Shown here: positions 238 through 55,176 of the stretch, one piece after another
Layout of the letters: every line of letters starts with the position of its first letter
Position numbering within the stretch: position 1 is the stretch's first letter
Source: a virus
Direction: 5' to 3' (one strand)
DNA length: 64,000 nucleotides
Virus record (IMG/VR): IMGVR_UViG_3300046513_000221
Span: 1 to 64,000 of that record
The notes under the pieces: model-generated
Databases searched by the model: none
Seen by the model: only the letters and a program-made list of their open reading frames with translations
Told to the model about the DNA's origin: nothing
Program-made: the position numbers and the translations under genes

Positions 238-384
238 GATATTTTCCTTGGACGGATATAGTTTGATTTGTATGTGAAGACATCCTAAAAAGTCTCCTCT
301 TTCAGTTTGTCTTCACATAGAAATCATATATGCTCACCAGTTTTTCAGATACGGTAGGGAGGATCCTGAGACCCTCCCAATGCA

Positions 385-3389: not shown

Positions 3390-3773
3390 TTACTTGCGGA
3401 CGATGGTGAGCATGCGCTCGCCGACGATGATGCCGACGGCGTTCGTGAGATCAGGGTAGAGCGGCTGCAGCTCCTTCATCGAGAGCAGGGTGATGACGAT
3501 GTCGTCGTAGCTCTCGTGGTGGATGCCGTTGCGCTCCTCCGTGAAGCCCCACTTGTGCGTGACGTCGCCAACGGGGGTGTGCTGAACGTGGTACAGCTCG
3601 GTCGGGGTGAAGTGGAACGACACGTCGCCGTACTCCTGCGACATGATGACGGAGAGGCGCGAAGGATCCTTGATCACCTCGGGGTTCTTCTTGAAGATCG
3701 CCAGTGCCTTACCGAAGATCTCGGCGTTCTGCGCGACGCCCATGTCTACGCGGGTCTGGATGCCTTGGATCAT
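3390..3773 (-). CDS. hypothetical protein (127 aa)
   Basis: ATG start at 3771-3773; coding-like composition. Confidence 0.6.
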   Translation of the reverse strand: MIQGIQTRVDMGVAQNAEIFGKALAIFKKNPEVIKDPSRLSVIMSQEYGDVSFHFTPTELYHVQHTPVGDVTHKWGFTEERNGIHHESYDDIVITLLSMKELQPLYPDLTNAVGIIVGERMLTIVRK

Positions 3774-4485
3774 TTTTCTGTGTTCCCAAATGTGAGTGAT
3801 TACAAAAAATAAGAGAGATGGCCCGATGCCGAAGCACCGAGCCTCTCAACTGCTTCCCTTTTCTGGTGGAGTGGGTCGCTATCTTCTTCTCGTCTGTTGC
3901 TACGTTGGATTTTGAGGTACAGCTGTGTCGTGTGTACTGCCGATACTGCCTTTTCGACCGTGTCCAGTCTACGTTTGGGTTCCACAGGCCACCATTTCGC
4001 CTGAATCGTTAAGCACCGCCTCGTGGCGGCTCTCTGGGTGATGTGATGAGCGCGTTTCAGCCCCATCCGGTACTCGCCCGGTACGTTACTGTGCTACGAG
4101 TCATAGGGAGGAAACCATTTGTCCGTGTCCCTACGAAGTTGATCCCTCAGTCCCCGACGGTCTGAAGAATTTTGATGCAAGAAGTGAGGTTGAGGTGGGT
4201 AGCTTAAAGGCTTCTTCTCCGCTCGTGTGAAGGGGTGGAGAGAAAGGACGCCTCCCTCCTACCCGGAGAGTGGATCCCAATTAGGTGCCTCAGCGAATCG
4301 ATAAGCTGACCCACCGAGGCGAGAACGGTTCTCGAACTAGGTTCGATCCCCATTGGACCGGATTAACGGTAACCCTTTCGGGCTGCTTGAGAACGGGGGT
4401 TCCGTGGAATTCCCCGTAGTTGTTAGATGAACCTTTCAGTCCATCATCGATATAATATATCAACAAGTGACCTGCAGATACGGTC

Positions 4486-5085
4486 CTACCGGTGGGAGAG
4501 GATGAGCACGATCGAGGAGTTGTCCTGCAGCTGAGCCCAGAAGGTGTGGTCGCGACCACGGCCCGAGTCGCCCTCGCGGTAGCCGAAGCAGTGCAAACGC
4601 TCGCCGCTCTTCGTGACGAAGCCCTGCAGCATGTCTGCCAGCTCCGAGTCCTTGTCGCCCTGCTCGATCTTACCGGCGTACAGGAAGTCGCGGTCAGAGA
4701 CGTCGTCCGGAGCCTCGTTGTACTCGCGCATGAAGACGTACGACTTGAAGCCCTGATTCAGCAGGTTCTCGTCCGGATGCTGCTCCGCGAAGTGCTGCTG
4801 GAGGAACGCCTTGAACTTGTCGTCCTGAGACGCCTCCGGTTCCTTGAAGGCCGTCGAGATGACGACCTCAACGTCCAGACCCAGAAGGTCGTTGGCCTTT
4901 CCCGAGTTCGTCGGCGGACGCATCGAGCCGTGCTTGCCGATGTAGTGGCGCAGCTTCGGGTCGGTACCCGTGTCCATCGAGACGGTCGCACCGGCGTTCT
5001 CCAGAGCGTTCTTGATGGACAGACCTGCCTGGAACAGGCACTCGTCACCCGCCCTGGACTTCACTTCAAACAAAATCGCTTTCAT
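4486..5085 (-). CDS. hypothetical protein (about 199 aa)
   Basis: Second ATG (MKAILFEVK...) is preceded by GGGAGTGGG, so preferred over the listed start at 5097. Confidence 0.5.
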   Translation of the reverse strand: MKAILFEVKSRAGDECLFQAGLSIKNALENAGATVSMDTGTDPKLRHYIGKHGSMRPPTNSGKANDLLGLDVEVVISTAFKEPEASQDDKFKAFLQQHFAEQHPDENLLNQGFKSYVFMREYNEAPDDVSDRDFLYAGKIEQGDKDSELADMLQGFVTKSGERLHCFGYREGDSGRGRDHTFWAQLQDNSSIVLILSHR

Positions 5086-5115
5086 ACCCACTCCCATAAG
5101 AAAACCTACCTTGAT

Positions 5116-5463: not shown

Positions 5464-6075
5464 TTAGAAGATGAGGTTCAATCCGACGAGCGAACCCACA
5501 ACCAGCAGCACGGCGGCGCAGACCCAGTGCCAGCCGGTCATGGTGTCGTCGGTGGAGAACTTGGTCACCAGCTTGCGGTTGTACAAGCCCCAGAACATCG
5601 CACGGTTCTCGTACTCGGCGCTATCGTACTTCTTACGCAGCAGGAACCACATCGCCAGCGAGTAGGAGAACAGCAGTACGAACGTGCCGAAGAAGACCTT
5701 CAGCAGCGACGCACCGACGATCTTGTAGACGATGATGCCCATAGTGACCTTACCCAGAGGGGTCTGGACGAAGTCGTTAGCCGCCATGCCGATCTCCTTC
5801 GCTGCGGAGACGGCTGCGCGCCCCATGTTGCCGCCCAGATCGCCCCACGCCTCGGCCTCGGTGCGGATGGTCTTCGAGACGTTGGCCGGAGACTTCTCTT
5901 CCTTCTCCAGAGCGGCCACGTTGGCGATCAGAGTCGCCTTCTGCTCCGCCGTCAGCTTGCTCACGTCCAGCGACGAGATGCTGCTCGCGCTGGTCTGGGC
6001 GAACGCCATAGGGCAGAAGAGGATAGCCATGATAGCTATCAGGAGGTACACTGGTTGCATCAGTTTGTCGATCAT
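5464..6075 (-). CDS. membrane protein with N-terminal signal/TM segment and C-terminal TM helices (203 aa)
   Basis: N-terminus LLIAIMAILFCPMAFAQTSA is signal-peptide-like; three further hydrophobic segments. Confidence 0.6.
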   Translation of the reverse strand: MIDKLMQPVYLLIAIMAILFCPMAFAQTSASSISSLDVSKLTAEQKATLIANVAALEKEEKSPANVSKTIRTEAEAWGDLGGNMGRAAVSAAKEIGMAANDFVQTPLGKVTMGIIVYKIVGASLLKVFFGTFVLLFSYSLAMWFLLRKKYDSAEYENRAMFWGLYNRKLVTKFSTDDTMTGWHWVCAAVLLVVGSLVGLNLIF

Positions 6076-13389: not shown

Positions 13390-13401
13390 TTCGATCCCCT
13401 T

Positions 13402-13432
13402 AAAAAAAGTTGGACGGGCGAACCCGCCCAAC
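13402..13432 (-). terminator. rho-independent terminator (GTTGGGCGGG-UUCG-CCCGTCCAAC followed by a T7 run on the minus strand)
   Basis: 9-bp stem with one mismatch, UUCG tetraloop and A7 on the plus strand, 6 nt after the stop of the pilin-like micro-gene. Confidence 0.65.
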
Positions 13433-13437
13433 TGGTA

Positions 13438-13575
13438 TTACATGAAGCTGGTGATCAGGTTCTTGATCATCGGCCAGAATTTTTCAACCGCGATGGTGCC
13501 GACGATGCCAATGATGGCGAGGACGACGAGCAGTTCGATCAGCGTGAAGCCGTCGTTATTAGGACGCTGCAGCAT
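13438..13575 (-). CDS. type IV prepilin-like micro-protein (45 aa)
   Basis: Not in the ORF track (<60 aa). Minus strand encodes MLQRPNNDG|FTLIELLVVLAIIGIVGTIAVEKFWPMIKNLITSFM. Perfect AAGGAGG RBS 6 nt before the ATG. Has the class III signal peptide: short basic leader, G-1, F+1, E+5, hydrophobic alpha-1 helix. Confidence 0.5.
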   Translation of the reverse strand: MLQRPNNDGFTLIELLVVLAIIGIVGTIAVEKFWPMIKNLITSFM

Positions 13576-16296: not shown

Positions 16297-16388
16297 CTTA
16301 CTTCCTTACTCGTTGTGAAAAGCACGGGCGCTAACCCGCTCCCAGCCCAACTCCGCTGGCCTAAGTCTTTGACTCTCAGCCTCGTTTT

Positions 16389-16398
16389 AATTATATAT
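16389..16398 (-). promoter_or_regulatory. AT-rich promoter-like motif (ATATATAATT on minus strand)
   Basis: One copy of a recurring intergenic motif; 93 nt upstream of the 16012..16296 start. Confidence 0.3.
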
Positions 16399-20261: not shown

Positions 20262-20303
20262 AGCTCTACTTCCAATTAAAAAGTCAACGCATAACCCATA
20301 TGA

Positions 20304-20312
20304 ATAATATAT
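20304..20312 (-). promoter_or_regulatory. AT-rich promoter-like motif (ATATATTAT on minus strand)
   Basis: Intergenic; 43 nt upstream of the 19782..20261 start. Confidence 0.35.
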
Positions 20313-22368: not shown

Positions 22369-22788
22369 CTAAACATGGATCGAATTACCTTGCCTAACGG
22401 TAACTTTTCGATCCTGCGCGTGTAATGATGCACCCGTTGAGTGCATGCCCAACGCATGACGCCGATGTTGAACATCCGTGACGTCATCTCCCGGAGATCC
22501 GGGACCGGAACCATCTTCTACCGACTCGCACCCAAGCGCTCGGTCTCCCACCACGGCCATGCAGCCAACGGGATGGTGAAGACGGGTGTTGTAGACTTCA
22601 CCTTTCGGTGTCGCCTCCTGAAGCAGCTGTTCTACCGCCGCTTTGGTGTTGGTATCGCCGACTTTGATGTCGACTAACGGGAAACCATCCGATACAGCAT
22701 GGACGGAATGGGTGCTACCGTTGAGGGAGGTCGTGACCTCTGCCTCGGGCGCTGCTAAACTAGCGCCTTCTTTTATACCGGAACACAC
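22369..22788 (-). CDS. doubtful ORF inside a 1-kb ORF-poor island
   Basis: Longest ORF in 22253-23319; no RBS; mediocre composition. Confidence 0.15.
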   Translation of the reverse strand: MCSGIKEGASLAAPEAEVTTSLNGSTHSVHAVSDGFPLVDIKVGDTNTKAAVEQLLQEATPKGEVYNTRLHHPVGCMAVVGDRALGCESVEDGSGPGSPGDDVTDVQHRRHALGMHSTGASLHAQDRKVTVRQGNSIHV

Positions 22789-23319
22789 AAAATACCTCTA
22801 CTGAAGCATACTGCAATGATACTCTCGGAGTTAGGCAACGACTTCTTACCGTTCCGTGGTTGCAGGGAAATCCTGCACTTGCGACCGATTCGCTTACACT
22901 TGACTTGGATGCCACACATCCGTTGTTGCCAAGTAGGGAATTCACGGCCTTGTATTTGGCGCTAGCATCTTTCCGGGACACAGCTGGTTCACGTACCTGC
23001 GACGGGTGAGAACGCCCGGTACCTTACGAAAAACCATCACGCCTTGCCCTTCCGGGCTGTATCACGAGTACGGAGACGAACCGGGTCTCACCCCGATTTG
23101 ATCGTCTCCGCGCCTGAAGGATCCTACTCTCCAGACTAGCCCCGTGTTGTTGATGAAACGACATCCCTCTCTTGAGTTCAGCCGTACCTCCACGTCACGC
23201 CATCGCCGGAACTCCGGTTGCGCGTGGAATTGTATGAAGTACCTCCGATTACGGATTAACATCCGATCGTCGAACGAGTCCGTCAGGTATCAGGCCTCCA
23301 ATCGACGACCACCAGTACT

Positions 23320-24324: not shown

Positions 24325-24388
24325 GATGCTCCCATAGGTACTAAATTCTTGAGTTTTCGAGTCTCCACTCGGATTTCTCTTCATTTTT

Positions 24389-24397
24389 ATAATATAT
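24389..24397 (-). promoter_or_regulatory. AT-rich promoter-like motif (ATATATTATA on minus strand)
   Basis: Intergenic; 65 nt upstream of the 23767..24324 start. Confidence 0.35.
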
Positions 24398-30917: not shown

Positions 30918-30953
30918 TAGTTTCCCTTTAGATTCTAGTCACAGTCAAACCTA

Positions 30954-30962
30954 TAATATATC
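30954..30962 (-). promoter_or_regulatory. AT-rich promoter-like motif (ATATATTATAGG on minus strand)
   Basis: Intergenic; 37 nt upstream of the 30672..30917 start. Confidence 0.35.
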
Positions 30963-38634: not shown

Positions 38635-38708
38635 TCTCAGTTCGGCATCTATTATAACGCCATTTTCGGTTTTACGCTATGCAACTTAACAACAGTCGAT
38701 ATCACTGC

Positions 38709-38718
38709 TATTATATAT
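38709..38718 (-). promoter_or_regulatory. AT-rich promoter-like motif (ATATATAATA on minus strand)
   Basis: Intergenic between the beta' gene stop and 38580. Confidence 0.3.
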
Positions 38719-43867: not shown

Positions 43868-43919
43868 GTCAAATCTCTATGTGAGTAATAGATTGTTGGA
43901 TCGTCTCACTCACACCAAA

Positions 43920-43928
43920 ATAATATAT
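43920..43928 (-). promoter_or_regulatory. AT-rich promoter-like motif (ATATATTATTTT on minus strand)
   Basis: 53 nt upstream of the 43118..43867 start. Confidence 0.35.
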
Positions 43929-45849: not shown

Positions 45850-47535
45850 CTATGCCAGCAGCGCCTCCAGATCGACGATGACGTCGTTGACGTCAGGCAG
45901 ACCGAGGAGTTCCTTGCCGATTCGGATGATATCGTTCTCGGCGATGAGGCCGGGGATGATATCGTCGAGTTCCGGACGCTTGTCGCACATGATCTTGCCG
46001 ATCATGGTGTCCGCATCGATGTTACCTGCCAGAATGATCGATGGATACATGGACGATAAGTCCTCGTCCACAATATTCTCGAAGATGCGATTGGAGCGCT
46101 TGCCATCCTTGCTGATGACGATGCCGACGGCGTCCATCATCTCAGGCAGAGCCACGAATGCACCCTTGAACTTCTTCTTCTCTTCCTCTTCCTTCAGACG
46201 GTTGTGGTTGTTGGACAGGAGGAAACCCTCCTTCTCCAGAACCATCGCCGCGAAGTTACGGATCGAGGTGGTCTTGGTCATGACCTTGTTGAAGCGGGTC
46301 GCGGTCATCAGGCCCATGTTGTACAGCAGGTCGATGTCGTTGTTCTGCTCTTCGAGCTGATACAGACGGAACGAGTCATACATCGAGTACTTGAGGAAGC
46401 TCTCGTAGTTGATGTACATCGCGTCCGTGATCTCGCCCTCGTACTCATACTTACCTTCGATCCCCTCGTCGATCAGGATCGCATCCAGAGCGTACGATTC
46501 GCGCTTGCCCATCGTCGCCCGGATCTTGGCGAACTGCTCCTGCATCTCGACGAACTGCGAGTAACCTGCAACCTCCAGCTTGGTGTTCCGCTTGGTGAAG
46601 TCGGTTGCGAAGGAATCGTTCTCGATCCATGTGGACTTGTACGGCAGCTCCTTTGGACACATCACCTCTTCAGGCTTTAGCTTCAGTCGGAGCATACGGT
46701 TCTTCATGGTTACCAAGTCGAACCCGGCGTTCCAAGCACCCATGAAGTCGGGTTTGTCACGCTTCACGATCTTGAAGAAGTCCTTCAGCAGCTCCGCCTC
46801 ATCGTCGTAGATGTGTACCTCGATCGCACGCACCTTGGCGTAATCGATCTTGGAGTTTGGATCCTTCTCGTTCATCTCGTCGATGACCTGAGAGATCCAC
46901 TCATCGCCGTATTCTGCGAATGCTTCAAGGAAGTCCATCTGAGATTGGTTGTTCTCGTTCTTCAGGATGAACGAGTGGATGGTCATCGTCGGCTGGTGGA
47001 TGTACGAGATCATCGACACCGGACATGGAGCCAGCTCTGGTTCAGGAAACTCCCTGTACTCCGACACATCGACCTCAATATCGTAGAACGCCTTGGTGAT
47101 CGGCAGGACTGCGATCTGGTGACGGTTGCGGTCGAGCCACTCACGCGTCTTGTAGTCTGCCAGATCCATGTCCGTCAGGTGCAGGTTGTTGTCCTTGTGG
47201 AGGTTACGGAGTTCCTTCCACTTACCGTTGTTCTTACAAGCCTTGTAGAAGTCCATCTGGTCGGAGGCCTTAGCCATCTCATACTGCAGATTGTCGAACT
47301 TCACGGTTATCGGCTCGACCTTGTCGAACTCGATGTAATTCGCTGCCTTCTTCAGCCTGAACTCGTCCTTGGTAATGTAGAACGTGTAGGACGGATCCTC
47401 CTCGATCTCGAATTGCTTCTTGATCGTACCATCCGGTTGAAGTACGCTCTCCACATAGATGATCTTGGAGTGCTGGCGATTGTTGTCGTCACGATCGCGA
47501 ACGTGCAAGACGTTCGATAGCTGTTTTCCGCTCAT
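45850..47535 (-). CDS. family-B DNA polymerase, N-terminal part (3'-5' exonuclease domain + polymerase motif A, 561 aa)
   Basis: Exo I YDIEVD; Exo II WNAGFDLVTM; Exo III YSMYDSFRLYQL; motif A DLSSMYPSIILAGN. The protein ends about 70 aa after motif A. Confidence 0.75.
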   Translation of the reverse strand: MSGKQLSNVLHVRDRDDNNRQHSKIIYVESVLQPDGTIKKQFEIEEDPSYTFYITKDEFRLKKAANYIEFDKVEPITVKFDNLQYEMAKASDQMDFYKACKNNGKWKELRNLHKDNNLHLTDMDLADYKTREWLDRNRHQIAVLPITKAFYDIEVDVSEYREFPEPELAPCPVSMISYIHQPTMTIHSFILKNENNQSQMDFLEAFAEYGDEWISQVIDEMNEKDPNSKIDYAKVRAIEVHIYDDEAELLKDFFKIVKRDKPDFMGAWNAGFDLVTMKNRMLRLKLKPEEVMCPKELPYKSTWIENDSFATDFTKRNTKLEVAGYSQFVEMQEQFAKIRATMGKRESYALDAILIDEGIEGKYEYEGEITDAMYINYESFLKYSMYDSFRLYQLEEQNNDIDLLYNMGLMTATRFNKVMTKTTSIRNFAAMVLEKEGFLLSNNHNRLKEEEEKKKFKGAFVALPEMMDAVGIVISKDGKRSNRIFENIVDEDLSSMYPSIILAGNIDADTMIGKIMCDKRPELDDIIPGLIAENDIIRIGKELLGLPDVNDVIVDLEALLA

Positions 47536-47614: not shown

Positions 47615-47727
47615 ATTTATTATTTATAATTATTTAAATTCGCGACACGTACGCGCGCGCGAGAAAGTCATTCGAGCTCCACCAGCTGACCGGAAGTCCA
47701 CTGAAAATGTGATGCTTAACAACCCAA

Positions 47728-47736
47728 TAATATATA
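47728..47736. promoter_or_regulatory. AT-rich promoter-like motif in divergent region (AATAATATATA)
   Basis: Between the 47535 (-) start and the 47777 (+) start; the following AT-rich block 47610-47660 also looks promoter-like. Confidence 0.3.
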
Positions 47737-53145: not shown

Positions 53146-53157
53146 GTATATATAATA
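53146..53157 (+). promoter_or_regulatory. AT-rich promoter-like motif (TATATATAATAT) upstream of the DNA polymerase C-fragment gene
   Basis: 55 nt upstream of the 53212 ATG in a divergent intergenic region. Confidence 0.3.
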
Positions 53158-53211
53158 TGGATGTATGAGTTAGAAGCATCCTCGAATGAATTTTGAAAGG
53201 AAGGTTAGTGT

Positions 53212-55176
53212 ATGAGCGGAGTCTACCATGACAAATATTTCGAGACGCTGGAACGGCGTCTCAGCCTCGTCTGCGGCGAACTCAGCGACGAGGATCGTGC
53301 AAAGCTCCGGGAGCGCATCTGGGCGATGCGCAAGCCAATCGAACTGACGATCGAAAACAACTACAAAGACACATGGATCGATACCAACTCGGAAGAGATC
53401 CTCAACATCATCTACGACAAGAAGCCGAACATCTCCGGCTATGGCGTACTGTTCAACCACAAGCCGAACATCCCCGGTCGCGTTCTGGACTTCCTGCTGA
53501 AGGAACGTAAGGTCAAGAAGAACAAGATGTTCGACCACCTGAACGACGACGACAAGACCATGTACAACAAGCTGGACGTGGAGCAGAAGGTGCTCAAGGT
53601 TCTGGCGAATGCGTACTACGGTGCGTTCGGTCAGCGTTCGTTCCACTTCTTCAATCCGTTCCTTGGTCCATCAGTGACCTACACGGGTCAGCACATCATT
53701 CTGAGCGCGATTCTCGGCTTCGAATCGTTCATGTCGGACAACTTCGCGTTCTTCACGTTCGACCAGCTGCTGAAGTACGTGGACAACATCACTCAGGAGT
53801 TCGACGCCGAGCTGACGGCTCTGGACGAGAAGGTCACCGTCGAGCAGGTGTACGCTCGTCTGTCCGGCAAGTGCAACTTCGAGCTGACCGAGGAGCAGCA
53901 GATGGTGCTGGGCGGCGTCCTCGATGACATGCCTTACACCCAGCTGGAGCGTCTGTTCCTCAAGAACAACCTGTTCTTCCTGCTGCGTAACTCCACGGAG
54001 GTGCGTGACATCTTCGGTGAGTGCTTCAGTTCGGAATTCCTCGATCCAGACCATCCTCCGAAGGAGATCGCTGAGAACGTCGAGGCACTGAACGAGTACT
54101 TCAGCTACTTCGTCTCCTATCCGTACCAGTGGGACGACAAGTACGAGACTGCGCAGAATATCAAACGCAAAACCGTGCTGATCTCCGACACGGACTCCAC
54201 ATTCCTCAATATGGATCCTGCCGTCAAGTGGTACGAGGAAACGTTTGGTGTCAAGCTTGATAAAGTGGGCAAGATCAACGTCTGCAACATCATGGTATAC
54301 AACGTTACGAAGTTCATCGAGAAGGTGTTCTACCAGCTTACGACGAACCTGAACGTGAAGGAGAACATGCGTTCGAAGATCAATATGAAATCCGAGTTCA
54401 ACTTCTCCCGGATCATCTTGACTAAGAACAAGAAGCAGTATGCAGGTCAGATCGTTCTACAAGAAGGCAAGCTGCTCGGTAAGCCCAAGTTCGCGGTCGT
54501 CGGCCTGTCAATCAAGAAGGTCGGTACTCCTAAGATCGCTCGCAAGCGGTTCAATGACATTCTCGAAAAGGACATGTTGTTGGCCGACGTCATCGATCCG
54601 CTGGTACCGTTCATGAAGTTCATGGAGTTCGAGCGCGACATCAACAACTCGCTCCGGGCCGGTGAGTCGAGCTTCCTGAAACCGGCGCGCTTCACCGCTG
54701 AACGCGCCTACAAGAAGCCATTCACTCAGCAGACCGTTCGCGGCGTACGCCTCTGGAATGCTATCTTCCCCAACAGGAAGATCCCTAACTTCACCTCCGT
54801 CAATATGCTGAAGCTGCGTAAGTACTCGCTGCCGAAGTTCGAAGTGGACAAGGATGGCGAACCGGTAGAGAACGTCAACAAGGAAGTCGACATTCTGGAA
54901 TTCATGGAGGAGATTGCTAAGCTGAATCTCGCCGAGAATATTCTGGAGGGCATCGCCGAGTTCATCCAGACCCCGGAGATCGGCAACTACGGCATCGACG
55001 TGATCGCCATTCCGAAGGACATCGACCAGTTCCCGGAGGAGCTGGTTCCTCTGGCCGACATCAGTTCCATCATCAACGACAACATGAAGAATGGTAACAT
55101 CCTTCTGGAGTCCATTGGGTTCAAGGTAATCAAGAGCCTGAAGTACGATACGGTGAGTAACATCATCGAGATCTAA
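53212..55176 (+). CDS. family-B DNA polymerase, C-terminal part (motifs B and C, thumb; 654 aa)
   Basis: Motif B KVLANAYYGAFG (KxxxNSxYG); motif C LISDTDSTF (DTDS); GAAAGGAAGG RBS. Confidence 0.75.
   Translation: MSGVYHDKYFETLERRLSLVCGELSDEDRAKLRERIWAMRKPIELTIENNYKDTWIDTNSEEILNIIYDKKPNISGYGVLFNHKPNIPGRVLDFLLKERKVKKNKMFDHLNDDDKTMYNKLDVEQKVLKVLANAYYGAFGQRSFHFFNPFLGPSVTYTGQHIILSAILGFESFMSDNFAFFTFDQLLKYVDNITQEFDAELTALDEKVTVEQVYARLSGKCNFELTEEQQMVLGGVLDDMPYTQLERLFLKNNLFFLLRNSTEVRDIFGECFSSEFLDPDHPPKEIAENVEALNEYFSYFVSYPYQWDDKYETAQNIKRKTVLISDTDSTFLNMDPAVKWYEETFGVKLDKVGKINVCNIMVYNVTKFIEKVFYQLTTNLNVKENMRSKINMKSEFNFSRIILTKNKKQYAGQIVLQEGKLLGKPKFAVVGLSIKKVGTPKIARKRFNDILEKDMLLADVIDPLVPFMKFMEFERDINNSLRAGESSFLKPARFTAERAYKKPFTQQTVRGVRLWNAIFPNRKIPNFTSVNMLKLRKYSLPKFEVDKDGEPVENVNKEVDILEFMEEIAKLNLAENILEGIAEFIQTPEIGNYGIDVIAIPKDIDQFPEELVPLADISSIINDNMKNGNILLESIGFKVIKSLKYDTVSNIIEI

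What the first reader, a model, noticed from the sequence alone, without database searches (positions are those of the whole stretch)
3774..4485. A 0.7-kb ORF-free island with a promoter-like motif at its upstream edge: candidate ncRNA or long structured leader
Intergenic spacers in this block are typically 0-60 nt. This 712-nt stretch has no convincing ORF in any frame; the candidates at 3800..4066 and 4290..4559 lack an RBS and have poor composition. Its GC is similar to coding DNA, and it begins (in the minus-strand direction) right after an ATATATTATATCG motif at 4452-4460. It contains several GC-rich inverted repeats, e.g. GGGGGTTCCGTGGAATTCCCC around 4395-4415, and a tRNA T-loop-like GGTTCGATCCCC that does not fold into a cloverleaf. 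It could encode a non-coding RNA such as a regulatory or anti-defence RNA, or a highly structured 5' UTR for the 3390..3773 operon.
Basis: seen in the sequence. Interest (0 to 1): 0.5.

Follow-up and report, generated by a model that had tools for sequence, protein, structure and literature searches.

The report
Giant-phage early structured RNA gene
The 0.7-kb gene-free stretch most likely makes a folded RNA of about 640 nucleotides that a giant phage related to phiR1-37 and AR9 would transcribe at the very start of infection; it matches no known RNA family and its function is unknown.

Summary
Window 3774-4485 has no coding signal: GC by codon position is 0.48/0.54/0.54, against GC3 of 0.80-0.91 in neighbouring genes. 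No ORF is conserved.

It looks like a minus-strand transcription unit. ATATATTAT-(6N)-G at 4460-4445 fits the core of the published AR9 virion-RNA-polymerase early promoter. Ten such motifs occur in the window (0.46 expected), all pointing with the genes. A strong intrinsic terminator (3847-3804) follows about 640 nt downstream.

The only diverged relative found (L004, a metagenome contig) keeps the island in the same place. The island differs at 22% of sites, against 38% at four-fold degenerate sites of flanking genes. Indels are not multiples of three.

Conserved folding is specific to the minus strand (RNAalifold z = -5.0, against -0.1 for plus). One hairpin keeps 13-15 base pairs at only 40% sequence identity.

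Rfam and ARAGORN find nothing, and the "T-loop" is spurious.

Best reading: a new large structured RNA, stand-alone and possibly also a read-through leader. Its function is unknown. Only two sequence types exist and there are no expression data.

The parts
4477..4484 (-). ACCGTATC box, 25 nt upstream of TATATTAT
   Evidence: Conserved in L004. The same ACCGTAT(T/C) box lies 26 nt upstream of TATATTAT in about a quarter of the AR9 early promoters in Table S2 of PMC5312081. Its role is unknown.
4445..4460 (-). Early promoter core ATATATTAT-(6N)-G, virion-RNA-polymerase type; predicted start is G at 4445
   Evidence: Matches the core of the AR9 early consensus AAATATATATTAT-(6N)-G+1. It is one of 6 perfect and 4 one-mismatch copies in the window, with 0.46 expected, all in gene orientation. 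Conserved in L004. The start site is inferred by analogy, not measured.
3804..4445 (-). Predicted RNA of about 640 nt, non-coding and structured
   Evidence: No coding periodicity. No conserved ORF. Single-sequence MFE z = -3.07 on minus against -0.11 on plus. Consensus fold z = -5.0 on minus against -0.14 on plus. Divergence is 22%, against 38% at four-fold sites of neighbours.
4426..4445 (-). 5'-terminal hairpin with a GNRA loop (GAAA in the window, GGAA in L004)
4393..4417 (-).
   Evidence: One C-G to U-A compensatory change.
4371..4384 (-). GNRA hairpin (loop GAAA in the window, GAGA in L004)
   Evidence: A-U to G-C and C-G to U-G changes keep the stem.
4356..4370 (-). 5' arm of the long-range helix (ACCGUUAAUCCGGUC)
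   Evidence: Pairs with 3957-3969 over 12 bp in the single-sequence and consensus folds. Both arms are invariant, so there is no covariation test.
4287..4320 (-). Variable hairpin V1: the stem is kept while the sequence is replaced
   Evidence: 13 bp in the window and 15 bp in L004, at 18/45 identity. Fold z = -4.5 and -6.0.
3957..3969 (-). 3' arm of the long-range helix (GACUGGACACGGU)
3820..3881 (-). 62-nt block identical in both phages, holding a loop-like CCACUCCACCAGAAAAGGGAAGCAG and most of the terminator stem
   Evidence: 59/60 identity. Unique in the window.
3804..3847 (-). Intrinsic terminator: 14-bp GC-rich stem, UUCG loop, then UUAUUUUUU
   Evidence: Identical in L004 apart from one bulge base.
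3774..3803 (-). Short conserved spacer carrying the start signals of the 127-aa gene (CACAUUUGGGAACACAGAAAA-AUG)
   Evidence: A similar CAC(T)TTTGGGAGTA module precedes other genes inside operons.

Best explanation
The island is a minus-strand transcription unit that yields a large structured RNA, not a protein.

Shown by the sequence:
- It has a promoter of the class that, in phage AR9, is read by the RNA polymerase packaged in the virion. The motif is ATATATTAT-(6N)-G, which predicts a start at 4445.
- About 640 nt of non-coding sequence follows, with folding that is conserved and specific to this strand.
- The fold has a 5'-terminal hairpin, several hairpins whose GNRA loops stay GNRA despite substitutions, a 12-bp long-range helix joining 4356-4370 to 3957-3969, and a variable hairpin kept by wholesale covariation.
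- A strong intrinsic terminator at 3847-3804 closes the unit.

Inferred:
- The RNA would be made within minutes of DNA injection, stabilised by its terminal hairpins, and would act through its folded shape.
- My preferred mechanism is a trans-acting scaffold or decoy that binds a host or phage protein during host take-over. I put this at about 45%.
- Another terminator in this phage (13.4 kb) directly abuts the next gene's ribosome-binding site. Some read-through is therefore likely. The same RNA would then also form the leader of the downstream operon (3773 to 856), and its terminator would set how much early transcription enters that operon.

It is the founding member of an RNA family absent from Rfam 15.
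For: Non-coding:
- GC by codon position is flat.
- Indels against the homologue are of 1, 2, 3, 5 and 8 nt.
- No ORF is conserved in frame.
- Gene callers left it empty in four public contigs.

Promoter:
- The AR9 early consensus is AAATATATATTAT-(6N)-G+1 (PMC5312081).
- All six perfect window copies and L004 have G exactly 6 nt after the motif.
- Ten copies occur with 0.46 expected.
- The phage belongs to the phiR1-37/AR9 group. Its divergent family-B polymerase and its portal are 35-39.5% identical to those phages.

Terminator. AR9 transcription stops strongly at predicted terminators.

Selection:
- Island divergence is 0.22, against 0.38 at four-fold sites of five flanking genes.
- Flanking proteins are only 51%, 81% and 56-59% identical.

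Structure:
- MFE z = -3.07 on minus against -0.11 on plus.
- RNAalifold gives -158 against -127 kcal/mol.
- The column-shuffle z is -5.0 (0 of 100 shuffles) against -0.14.
- Ten pairs changed on both sides, against 0-3 in slid controls.
- The L004 fold transferred to the window breaks 34 pairs, against 52 expected (0 of 2000 shuffles).
- The V1 hairpins fold with z = -4.5 and -6.0 at 40% identity.
Against: - There are no expression data, so the transcript ends are inferred from motifs.
- Only two distinct sequences exist. Covariation cannot be tested with R-scape-type statistics, and many predicted helices are invariant or uncertain.
- The window fold transferred to L004 is only weakly better than chance (104 of 2000 shuffles).
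- The promoter lacks the AT-rich upstream extension of the AR9 consensus.
- No terminator separates the upstream gene from the island, so part of the RNA may simply be a 3' UTR.
- No partner protein, target or catalytic motif was found, so the trans-acting mechanism is a guess.
- Flanking proteins are orphans, and their structure models were unusable (pLDDT 39 and 43).
Confidence: 0.7

Rival explanations
1. It is purely a cis-acting leader. The RNA of about 640 nt is a sensor or attenuator, and its terminator is conditionally read through to switch on the downstream operon (3773 to 856). It has no function in trans.
For: - The terminator sits only 30 nt before the 127-aa gene, with no recognisable promoter in between.
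- The terminator-to-ATG segment is the most conserved part of the locus (59/60 and 56/60 identity).
- Another terminator in this phage directly abuts the next gene's ribosome-binding site, so read-through appears to be the normal route of expression.
- Giant phages make RNAs by premature termination in 5' UTRs (PMC11512511).
- AR9 has early 5' UTRs of up to 340 nt, and the g214 one is strongly structured.
Against: - 640 nt with many conserved domains is far larger than known attenuators or riboswitch leaders, on my own knowledge of those classes.
- No Rfam riboswitch, T-box or leader matches.
- I saw no convincing conserved antiterminator pairing. The only candidate is about 8 bp against a 14-bp GC-rich stem, and this was checked by eye only.
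- The other nine early-type promoters that I checked lie 30-180 nt from a gene start.
Confidence: 0.22
2. It is a DNA-level element: a transcription-primed replication origin, where the promoter-driven structured transcript primes DNA synthesis. ColE1 RNA II and the T4 and T7 promoter-dependent origins work this way.
For: - It is an ORF-free island with a strong early promoter and a conserved structured transcript of ColE1-RNA-II-like length.
- The comparison with ColE1, T4 and T7 rests on my own knowledge, not on a test.
Against: - There are no iterons or repeats.
- There is no AT-rich unwinding region apart from the promoter.
- Cumulative GC skew shows no inflection here.
- The RNA is C-rich rather than G-rich over 4100-4400, which is unfavourable for R-loops.
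- The unit ends in a clean terminator.
- The strand switch and the AT-richest region of the window are at 47.5-47.8 kb.
Confidence: 0.05
3. It is a decayed pseudogene or neutral spacer that happens to lie between a promoter and a terminator.
For: It has no detectable function and no database match.
Against: - It evolves more slowly than four-fold degenerate sites of its neighbours (0.22 against 0.38).
- Its conserved fold is strand-specific, with z = -5.
- The V1 stem is preserved although its sequence has been replaced.
- The length is kept (712 against 705 nt).
Confidence: 0.02
4. It is an ORF-less self-splicing intron or other mobile RNA element.
For: - AR9-like phages carry many group I introns, and one AR9 intron contains an early promoter.
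- The RNA has intron-like features: GNRA loops, a long-range helix and a comparable size.
Against: - No group I or group II intron match appears, even at E up to 10.
- The flanking ORFs are complete, separately conserved genes with their own stop and start signals.
- An internal strong terminator would abort expression of a host gene.
Confidence: 0.01

Closest known systems
ROOL and GOLLD large 'ornate' RNAs (PMC12286853)
   Same: RNAs of 500-800 nt, often carried by phages or prophages, with intricate multi-domain folds and unknown function. Both are non-coding.
   Different: No sequence or structure match appears in Rfam 15, even at E up to 10. There are no neighbouring tRNA genes. This RNA sits in a lytic-type giant phage under a virion-polymerase early promoter. 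Oligomerisation is untested.
5'UTR-derived sRNAs of giant phages made by premature termination (201phi2-1 sRNA005 and its phiKZ counterpart; PMC11512511)
   Same: The layout is the same: a phage promoter, then a structured RNA, then a terminator, just upstream of a gene. Conservation among related giant phages is also shared.
   Different: Those RNAs were selected as under 250 nt and are linked to a tail gene. This one is about 640 nt, is driven by an early promoter, and shares no sequence with them.
phiR1-37 misc_4, an intergenic RNA of about 300 nt (PMC4848604)
   Same: It is an ORF-free intergenic transcript in the closest characterised relative. The portal is 39.5% and the polymerase 38.7% identical.
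   Different: It lies between divergent genes g099 and g100. It is AT-rich and half the size. A covariance model of the conserved core here does not match it, and there is no synteny.
Long early 5' UTRs of AR9, such as g214 at 340 nt (PMC5312081)
   Same: The promoter class is the same. The g214 leader is strongly structured (z = -4.2) and has a hairpin followed by a U-rich run before the gene.
   Different: There is no detectable similarity. It is half the length. No terminator was called by the scan. Its function is likewise unknown.

Membership tests
AR9/phiR1-37-type virion-RNAP early promoter | Core motif (A)TATATTAT | tested here: met
   ATATATTAT at 4460-4452 on the minus strand. Six perfect copies in the window, with 0.15 expected. 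Consensus taken from PMC5312081.
AR9/phiR1-37-type virion-RNAP early promoter | G (+1) exactly 6 nt downstream of the motif | tested here: met
   All six perfect copies and the L004 copy have it.
AR9/phiR1-37-type virion-RNAP early promoter | AT-rich extension upstream of the core (AAAT...) | tested here: not met
   The upstream bases are TTGTTG, CTC, GGA and similar in this 59% GC genome. The core alone is conserved.
AR9/phiR1-37-type virion-RNAP early promoter | Transcription start mapped; early timing; independence from protein synthesis | not testable with these tools
   Needs infected-cell RNA. The phage is known only from metagenome contigs.
Intrinsic (rho-independent) terminator | GC-rich stem-loop followed directly by a U tract | tested here: met
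   14-bp stem, UUCG loop, then UUAUUUUUU at 3847-3804.
Rfam families (ROOL, GOLLD, OLE, HEARO, raiA, tmRNA, RNase P, 6S, SRP, group I and II introns, riboswitches, T-box, Csr/Rsm sponges) | Covariance-model match | tested here: not met
   There is no hit at gathering score in the window. At E up to 10 the window and L004 give only unrelated hits of 9-17 bits, and these differ between the two.
tRNA / tmRNA | Cloverleaf or tmRNA fold with a T-loop | tested here: not met
   ARAGORN finds none. GGTTCGATCCCC is on the plus strand and is not conserved in L004.
Protein-coding gene or pseudogene | Codon periodicity and an ORF conserved in frame | tested here: not met
   GC by position is 0.48/0.54/0.54. 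Indels are not multiples of three. No ORF is conserved in frame.
Structured non-coding RNA (generic) | Conserved secondary structure beyond chance, on one strand | tested here: met
   Column-shuffle z = -5.0 on minus against -0.14 on plus. V1 hairpins.
Structured non-coding RNA (generic) | Statistically significant covariation across many homologues | tested here: inconclusive
   Only two distinct sequences exist. Ten pairs changed on both sides, against 0-3 in slid controls, but the structure was derived from the same alignment.
Replication origin | Iterons, an AT-rich unwinding element, and a skew inflection | tested here: not met
   No repeat families beyond chance two-copy matches. No skew inflection.
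Antisense / base-pairing sRNA | Extended complementarity to a target mRNA | tested here: inconclusive
   Within the 64-kb window only chance-level 11-14-nt matches occur. The rest of the phage (about 263 kb) and the unknown host could not be searched.

The most novel reading that the evidence does not exclude
This would be the first member of a new class of large (over 600 nt) ornate RNAs that giant phages with packaged RNA polymerases produce in the first minutes of infection. It would work as a ribozyme, or as an RNA-only or RNA-protein assembly, for host take-over or anti-defence. It would be a lytic-phage counterpart of ROOL and GOLLD, but with a defined promoter, timing and genetic context.
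Probability: 0.3. Interest if true: 0.8.

Novelty: new variant of a known kind. Interest (0 to 1): 0.6.

Why it matters
Bacterial and phage non-coding RNAs above about 500 nt are rare. On my own knowledge, the characterised ones are mostly ribozymes or elaborate assemblies.

A 2026 review of jumbo phage biology says only that phiKZ expresses non-coding RNAs of unknown role (PMC13282480).

This candidate has clean predicted boundaries, a predicted expression time (early, by the virion polymerase), and a homologue showing selection on the fold. It can therefore be tested directly by in vitro transcription, structure probing or cryo-EM, even without a cultured phage.

It also shows that the core of the AR9-type early promoter persists in a 59% GC relative. 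That gives a simple way to annotate early transcription units in uncultured phages of the phiR1-37/AR9 group.

Tried and rejected
Searches for more homologues all failed:
- megablast, blastn and tblastn of the locus and both flanking proteins against 50,697 phage records;
- flank-based scans of IMG/VR;
- six exact-pattern scans of IMG/VR with conserved blocks, giving only two chance hits in coding DNA;
- one metagenome scan with a 17-mer, giving 95 hits that all matched the seed only;
- one GTDB genome scan, giving one chance hit in a Ruminococcus MAG;
- three word-indexed protein searches and one exhaustive HMMER search, which returned only the two known lineages.

Other ideas tested and dropped:
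- The three contigs carrying the exact flanking gene have identical islands, so they are uninformative.
- Known RNA families and tRNA/tmRNA gave nothing.
- A Csr/Rsm-like sponge is unlikely, because GGA is not enriched.
- The window holds no paralogue and no antisense target.
- ACTCACAT is not enriched, so it is not a second promoter motif.
- Neighbour function gave no lead. Pfam, PHROGs, NCBIfam and PDB found nothing for the flanking genes. AlphaFold models had pLDDT 39 and 43, so no fold search was run.
- The one neighbour with phage homologues (5464-6075, phrog_19575) is scattered among unrelated phages and gives no synteny.
- A covariance model of the conserved core does not match the AR9 g214 leader or the phiR1-37 misc_4 locus.

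Full report
**The observation**

The interval 3774-4485 lies between two minus-strand genes. The 203-aa gene (4486-5097) is upstream and the 127-aa gene (3390-3773) is downstream.

The six neighbouring genes show the strong codon bias of this 59% GC genome, with GC3 of 0.80-0.91. The island is flat at 0.48/0.54/0.54 and has 6-13 stops in every frame. Spacers in the surrounding block are 1-51 nt, and in a crude gene map the island is the longest gap in the window. The gene callers behind four public contigs that carry this locus also called nothing here.

**Which genome this is**

The window encodes a "divergent family-B DNA polymerase" (PF20286). Its best phage matches are phiR1-37 (38.7%) and PBS1/AR9 (35%). 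Its portal is 39.5% identical to phiR1-37 g160. It is therefore an uncultured, high-GC member of the phiR1-37/AR9 group of giant phages, which carry their own multisubunit RNA polymerases. The longest contig on record that carries the 127-aa flanking protein is 263 kb.

**Promoter**

The AT-rich motif at the upstream edge is not a generic AT patch.
- TATATTAT occurs six times in 64 kb, always on the minus strand, with 0.15 expected.
- All six copies read ATATATTAT, with a G exactly six bases further on.
- Allowing one mismatch gives ten copies, with 0.46 expected. Each points the same way as the adjacent genes.
- The experimentally mapped early promoter of AR9 is AAATATATATTAT-(6N)-G+1. It is read by the virion-packaged polymerase, and phiKZ and phiR1-37 share the same 6-nt spacing (PMC5312081).
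- The island's copy also has an ACCGTATC box 25 nt upstream. An ACCGTAT(T/C) box sits 26 nt upstream in about a quarter of AR9 early promoters.

By analogy, transcription starts at G 4445 and runs leftwards. The other early-type promoters that I checked lie 30-180 nt from a gene start. This one faces 672 nt without a gene.

**Terminator**

On the minus strand, 3847-3804 forms a 14-bp GC-rich stem with a UUCG loop, followed by UUAUUUUUU. It is one of only two strong minus-strand terminators in the first 20 kb. In AR9, transcription stops strongly at predicted terminators. The predicted RNA is therefore about 640 nt.

No terminator lies between the upstream gene's stop codon and the promoter. 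Transcripts of the upstream operon probably also run through the island.

**Comparative evidence**

Exact copies of the island occur in three contigs and are uninformative.

One diverged relative exists, L004 (JGI Ga0590109_0008637). It has a 705-nt ORF-free island in the same position.
- Flanking proteins are 51%, 81% and 56-59% identical.
- Four-fold degenerate sites of five flanking genes differ at 38% of positions. The island differs at 22%.
- Indels are of 1, 2, 3, 5 and 8 nt, and no ORF is conserved in frame.
- The promoter, the +1 G and the terminator are all conserved.
- The last 140 nt are almost identical, at 59/60 and 56/60.

This is purifying selection on a non-coding sequence.

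**Structure**

The minus strand folds better than shuffled sequence (z = -3.07). The plus strand does not (z = -0.11).

On the two-sequence alignment:
- RNAalifold gives -158 kcal/mol for minus and -127 for plus.
- Against 100 column-shuffled alignments, the minus strand has z = -5.0, with no shuffle as good. The plus strand has z = -0.14.
- The consensus has 161 pairs. Ten changed on both sides while staying paired, against 0-3 in slid controls. This count is biased, because the structure was derived from the same alignment.
- Transferring the L004 fold to the window breaks 34 pairs where 52 are expected (0 of 2000 shuffles). The reverse transfer is only marginal (104 of 2000).

The clearest single feature is hairpin V1 (4320-4287). 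The two phages share 18 of 45 bases there. Both still form a long perfect hairpin, 13 bp in the window and 15 bp in L004, with z = -4.5 and -6.0.

Other recurring elements:
- a hairpin at the very 5' end;
- loops that stay GNRA despite substitutions (GAAA to GGAA, and GAAA to GAGA);
- a 12-bp long-range helix pairing 4356-4370 with 3957-3969.

With two sequences the detailed fold is provisional.

**What it is not**

- No Rfam 15 family matches at gathering score. Hits at E up to 10 are unrelated and differ between the two homologues.
- ARAGORN finds no tRNA or tmRNA.
- There are no iterons, no AT-rich unwinding block and no skew inflection of the kind expected at an origin.
- It is not an intron. 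The flanking genes are complete and separately conserved, and no intron model matches.
- It has no paralogue or long antisense target in the window, and GGA sponge motifs are not enriched.

**How it probably works**

The sequence shows an early-type promoter, a structured non-coding region under selection, and a terminator. The rest is inferred.

The RNA would be made immediately after injection by the packaged polymerase. Its terminal hairpins would stabilise it, and it would act through its fold. Its size and multi-domain conservation exceed what an attenuator needs, so I favour a trans-acting scaffold or decoy (about 45%).

A cis role is not excluded. At 13.4 kb another strong terminator runs straight into the next gene's ribosome-binding site. 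Read-through therefore seems to be a normal route of expression in this phage. The island's terminator lies 30 nt before the 127-aa gene, and I saw no recognisable promoter in between. The RNA may be both a terminated product and the leader of read-through mRNAs. That pattern is known at smaller scale in giant phages (PMC11512511).

**Comparison with what is known**

- The nearest analogues by layout are the giant-phage 5'UTR-derived sRNAs, which are under 250 nt.
- The nearest by host lineage are phiR1-37 misc_4 (about 300 nt, PMC4848604) and the long structured early leaders of AR9 (g214: 341 nt, z = -4.2).
- The nearest by size and ornateness are ROOL and GOLLD (PMC12286853).

None is detectably homologous. 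A 2026 review notes only that phiKZ expresses non-coding RNAs of unknown role. I rate the island a new RNA family and a markedly larger variant of a known kind of phage element.

**Limits**

- The family has only two sequence types.
- All searchable collections were exhausted without further members.
- There is no expression evidence.
- The neighbouring proteins are orphans with unusable structure models.

Noticed in passing
window 316-331, 16383-16398, 20297-20312, 24382-24397, 30946-30961, 38703-38718, 43913-43928, 47720-47735 (all minus); 53148-53163 (plus): Nine further AR9-type early promoter motifs, ATATATTAT-(6N)-G with at most one mismatch. Each points with the adjacent genes. Together with the island's copy they outline the early transcription units of this high-GC phage.
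   Followed up: partly
window about 13437-13574 (minus): A 45-aa ORF, MLQRPNNDG/FTLIELLVVLAIIGIVG..., carries a prepilin-type N-terminal methylation motif (Pfam N_methyl, E = 1.8e-10). This is a minimal pilin-like peptide in a giant phage. It suggests a host with type IV pilus or type II secretion machinery.
   Followed up: partly
window 13400-13433 (minus): A strong intrinsic terminator whose U tract runs directly into the ribosome-binding site and ATG of the next gene (TTTTTTTAAGGGGATCGAAATG). Downstream genes would seem to depend on terminator read-through.
   Followed up: no
window 45850-47535 (minus) and 53212-55176 (plus): The family-B DNA polymerase is split. The exonuclease domain and the divergent polymerase domain are separate genes on opposite strands, about 6 kb apart.
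   Followed up: no
window about 22515-23060: A second stretch with weak codon periodicity (0.09-0.18), downstream of the early promoter at 24389. Folding is only marginally better than shuffles on either strand (z = -1.75 and -1.44). No homologous contig covers it, so its status is unresolved.
   Followed up: partly
L102 (AR9 KU878088.1) 1725-2065, equal to record 181724-182064: The 341-nt early 5' UTR of AR9 g214 is strongly structured (z = -4.2). It contains a long hairpin followed by a U-rich run. It may be a functional analogue of the island, but there is no detectable similarity.
   Followed up: partly
window, upstream of the gene starts at 3773, 7790, 8593 and 22252: A recurrent gene-start module, CAC(T/A)TTTGGGAGTA, lies 10-20 nt before the start codon. 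It could be an extended ribosome-binding signal or a promoter of another class.
   Followed up: no
window 4486-5097 (minus) and L004 729-1358: The upstream 203-aa protein has no relative among 1.84 billion cluster representatives apart from its two lineage copies. It carries a conserved G-S-G-R-G-R-D motif near its C-terminus. The arginine-glycine run might bind RNA, but this is speculation.
   Followed up: partly
window 5464-6075 (minus): The 203-aa protein of phrog_19575 has 25-32% identical homologues scattered in unrelated phages (Vibrio, Xanthomonas XacN1, Variovorax, Acidovorax). This points to a mobile accessory gene.
   Followed up: partly
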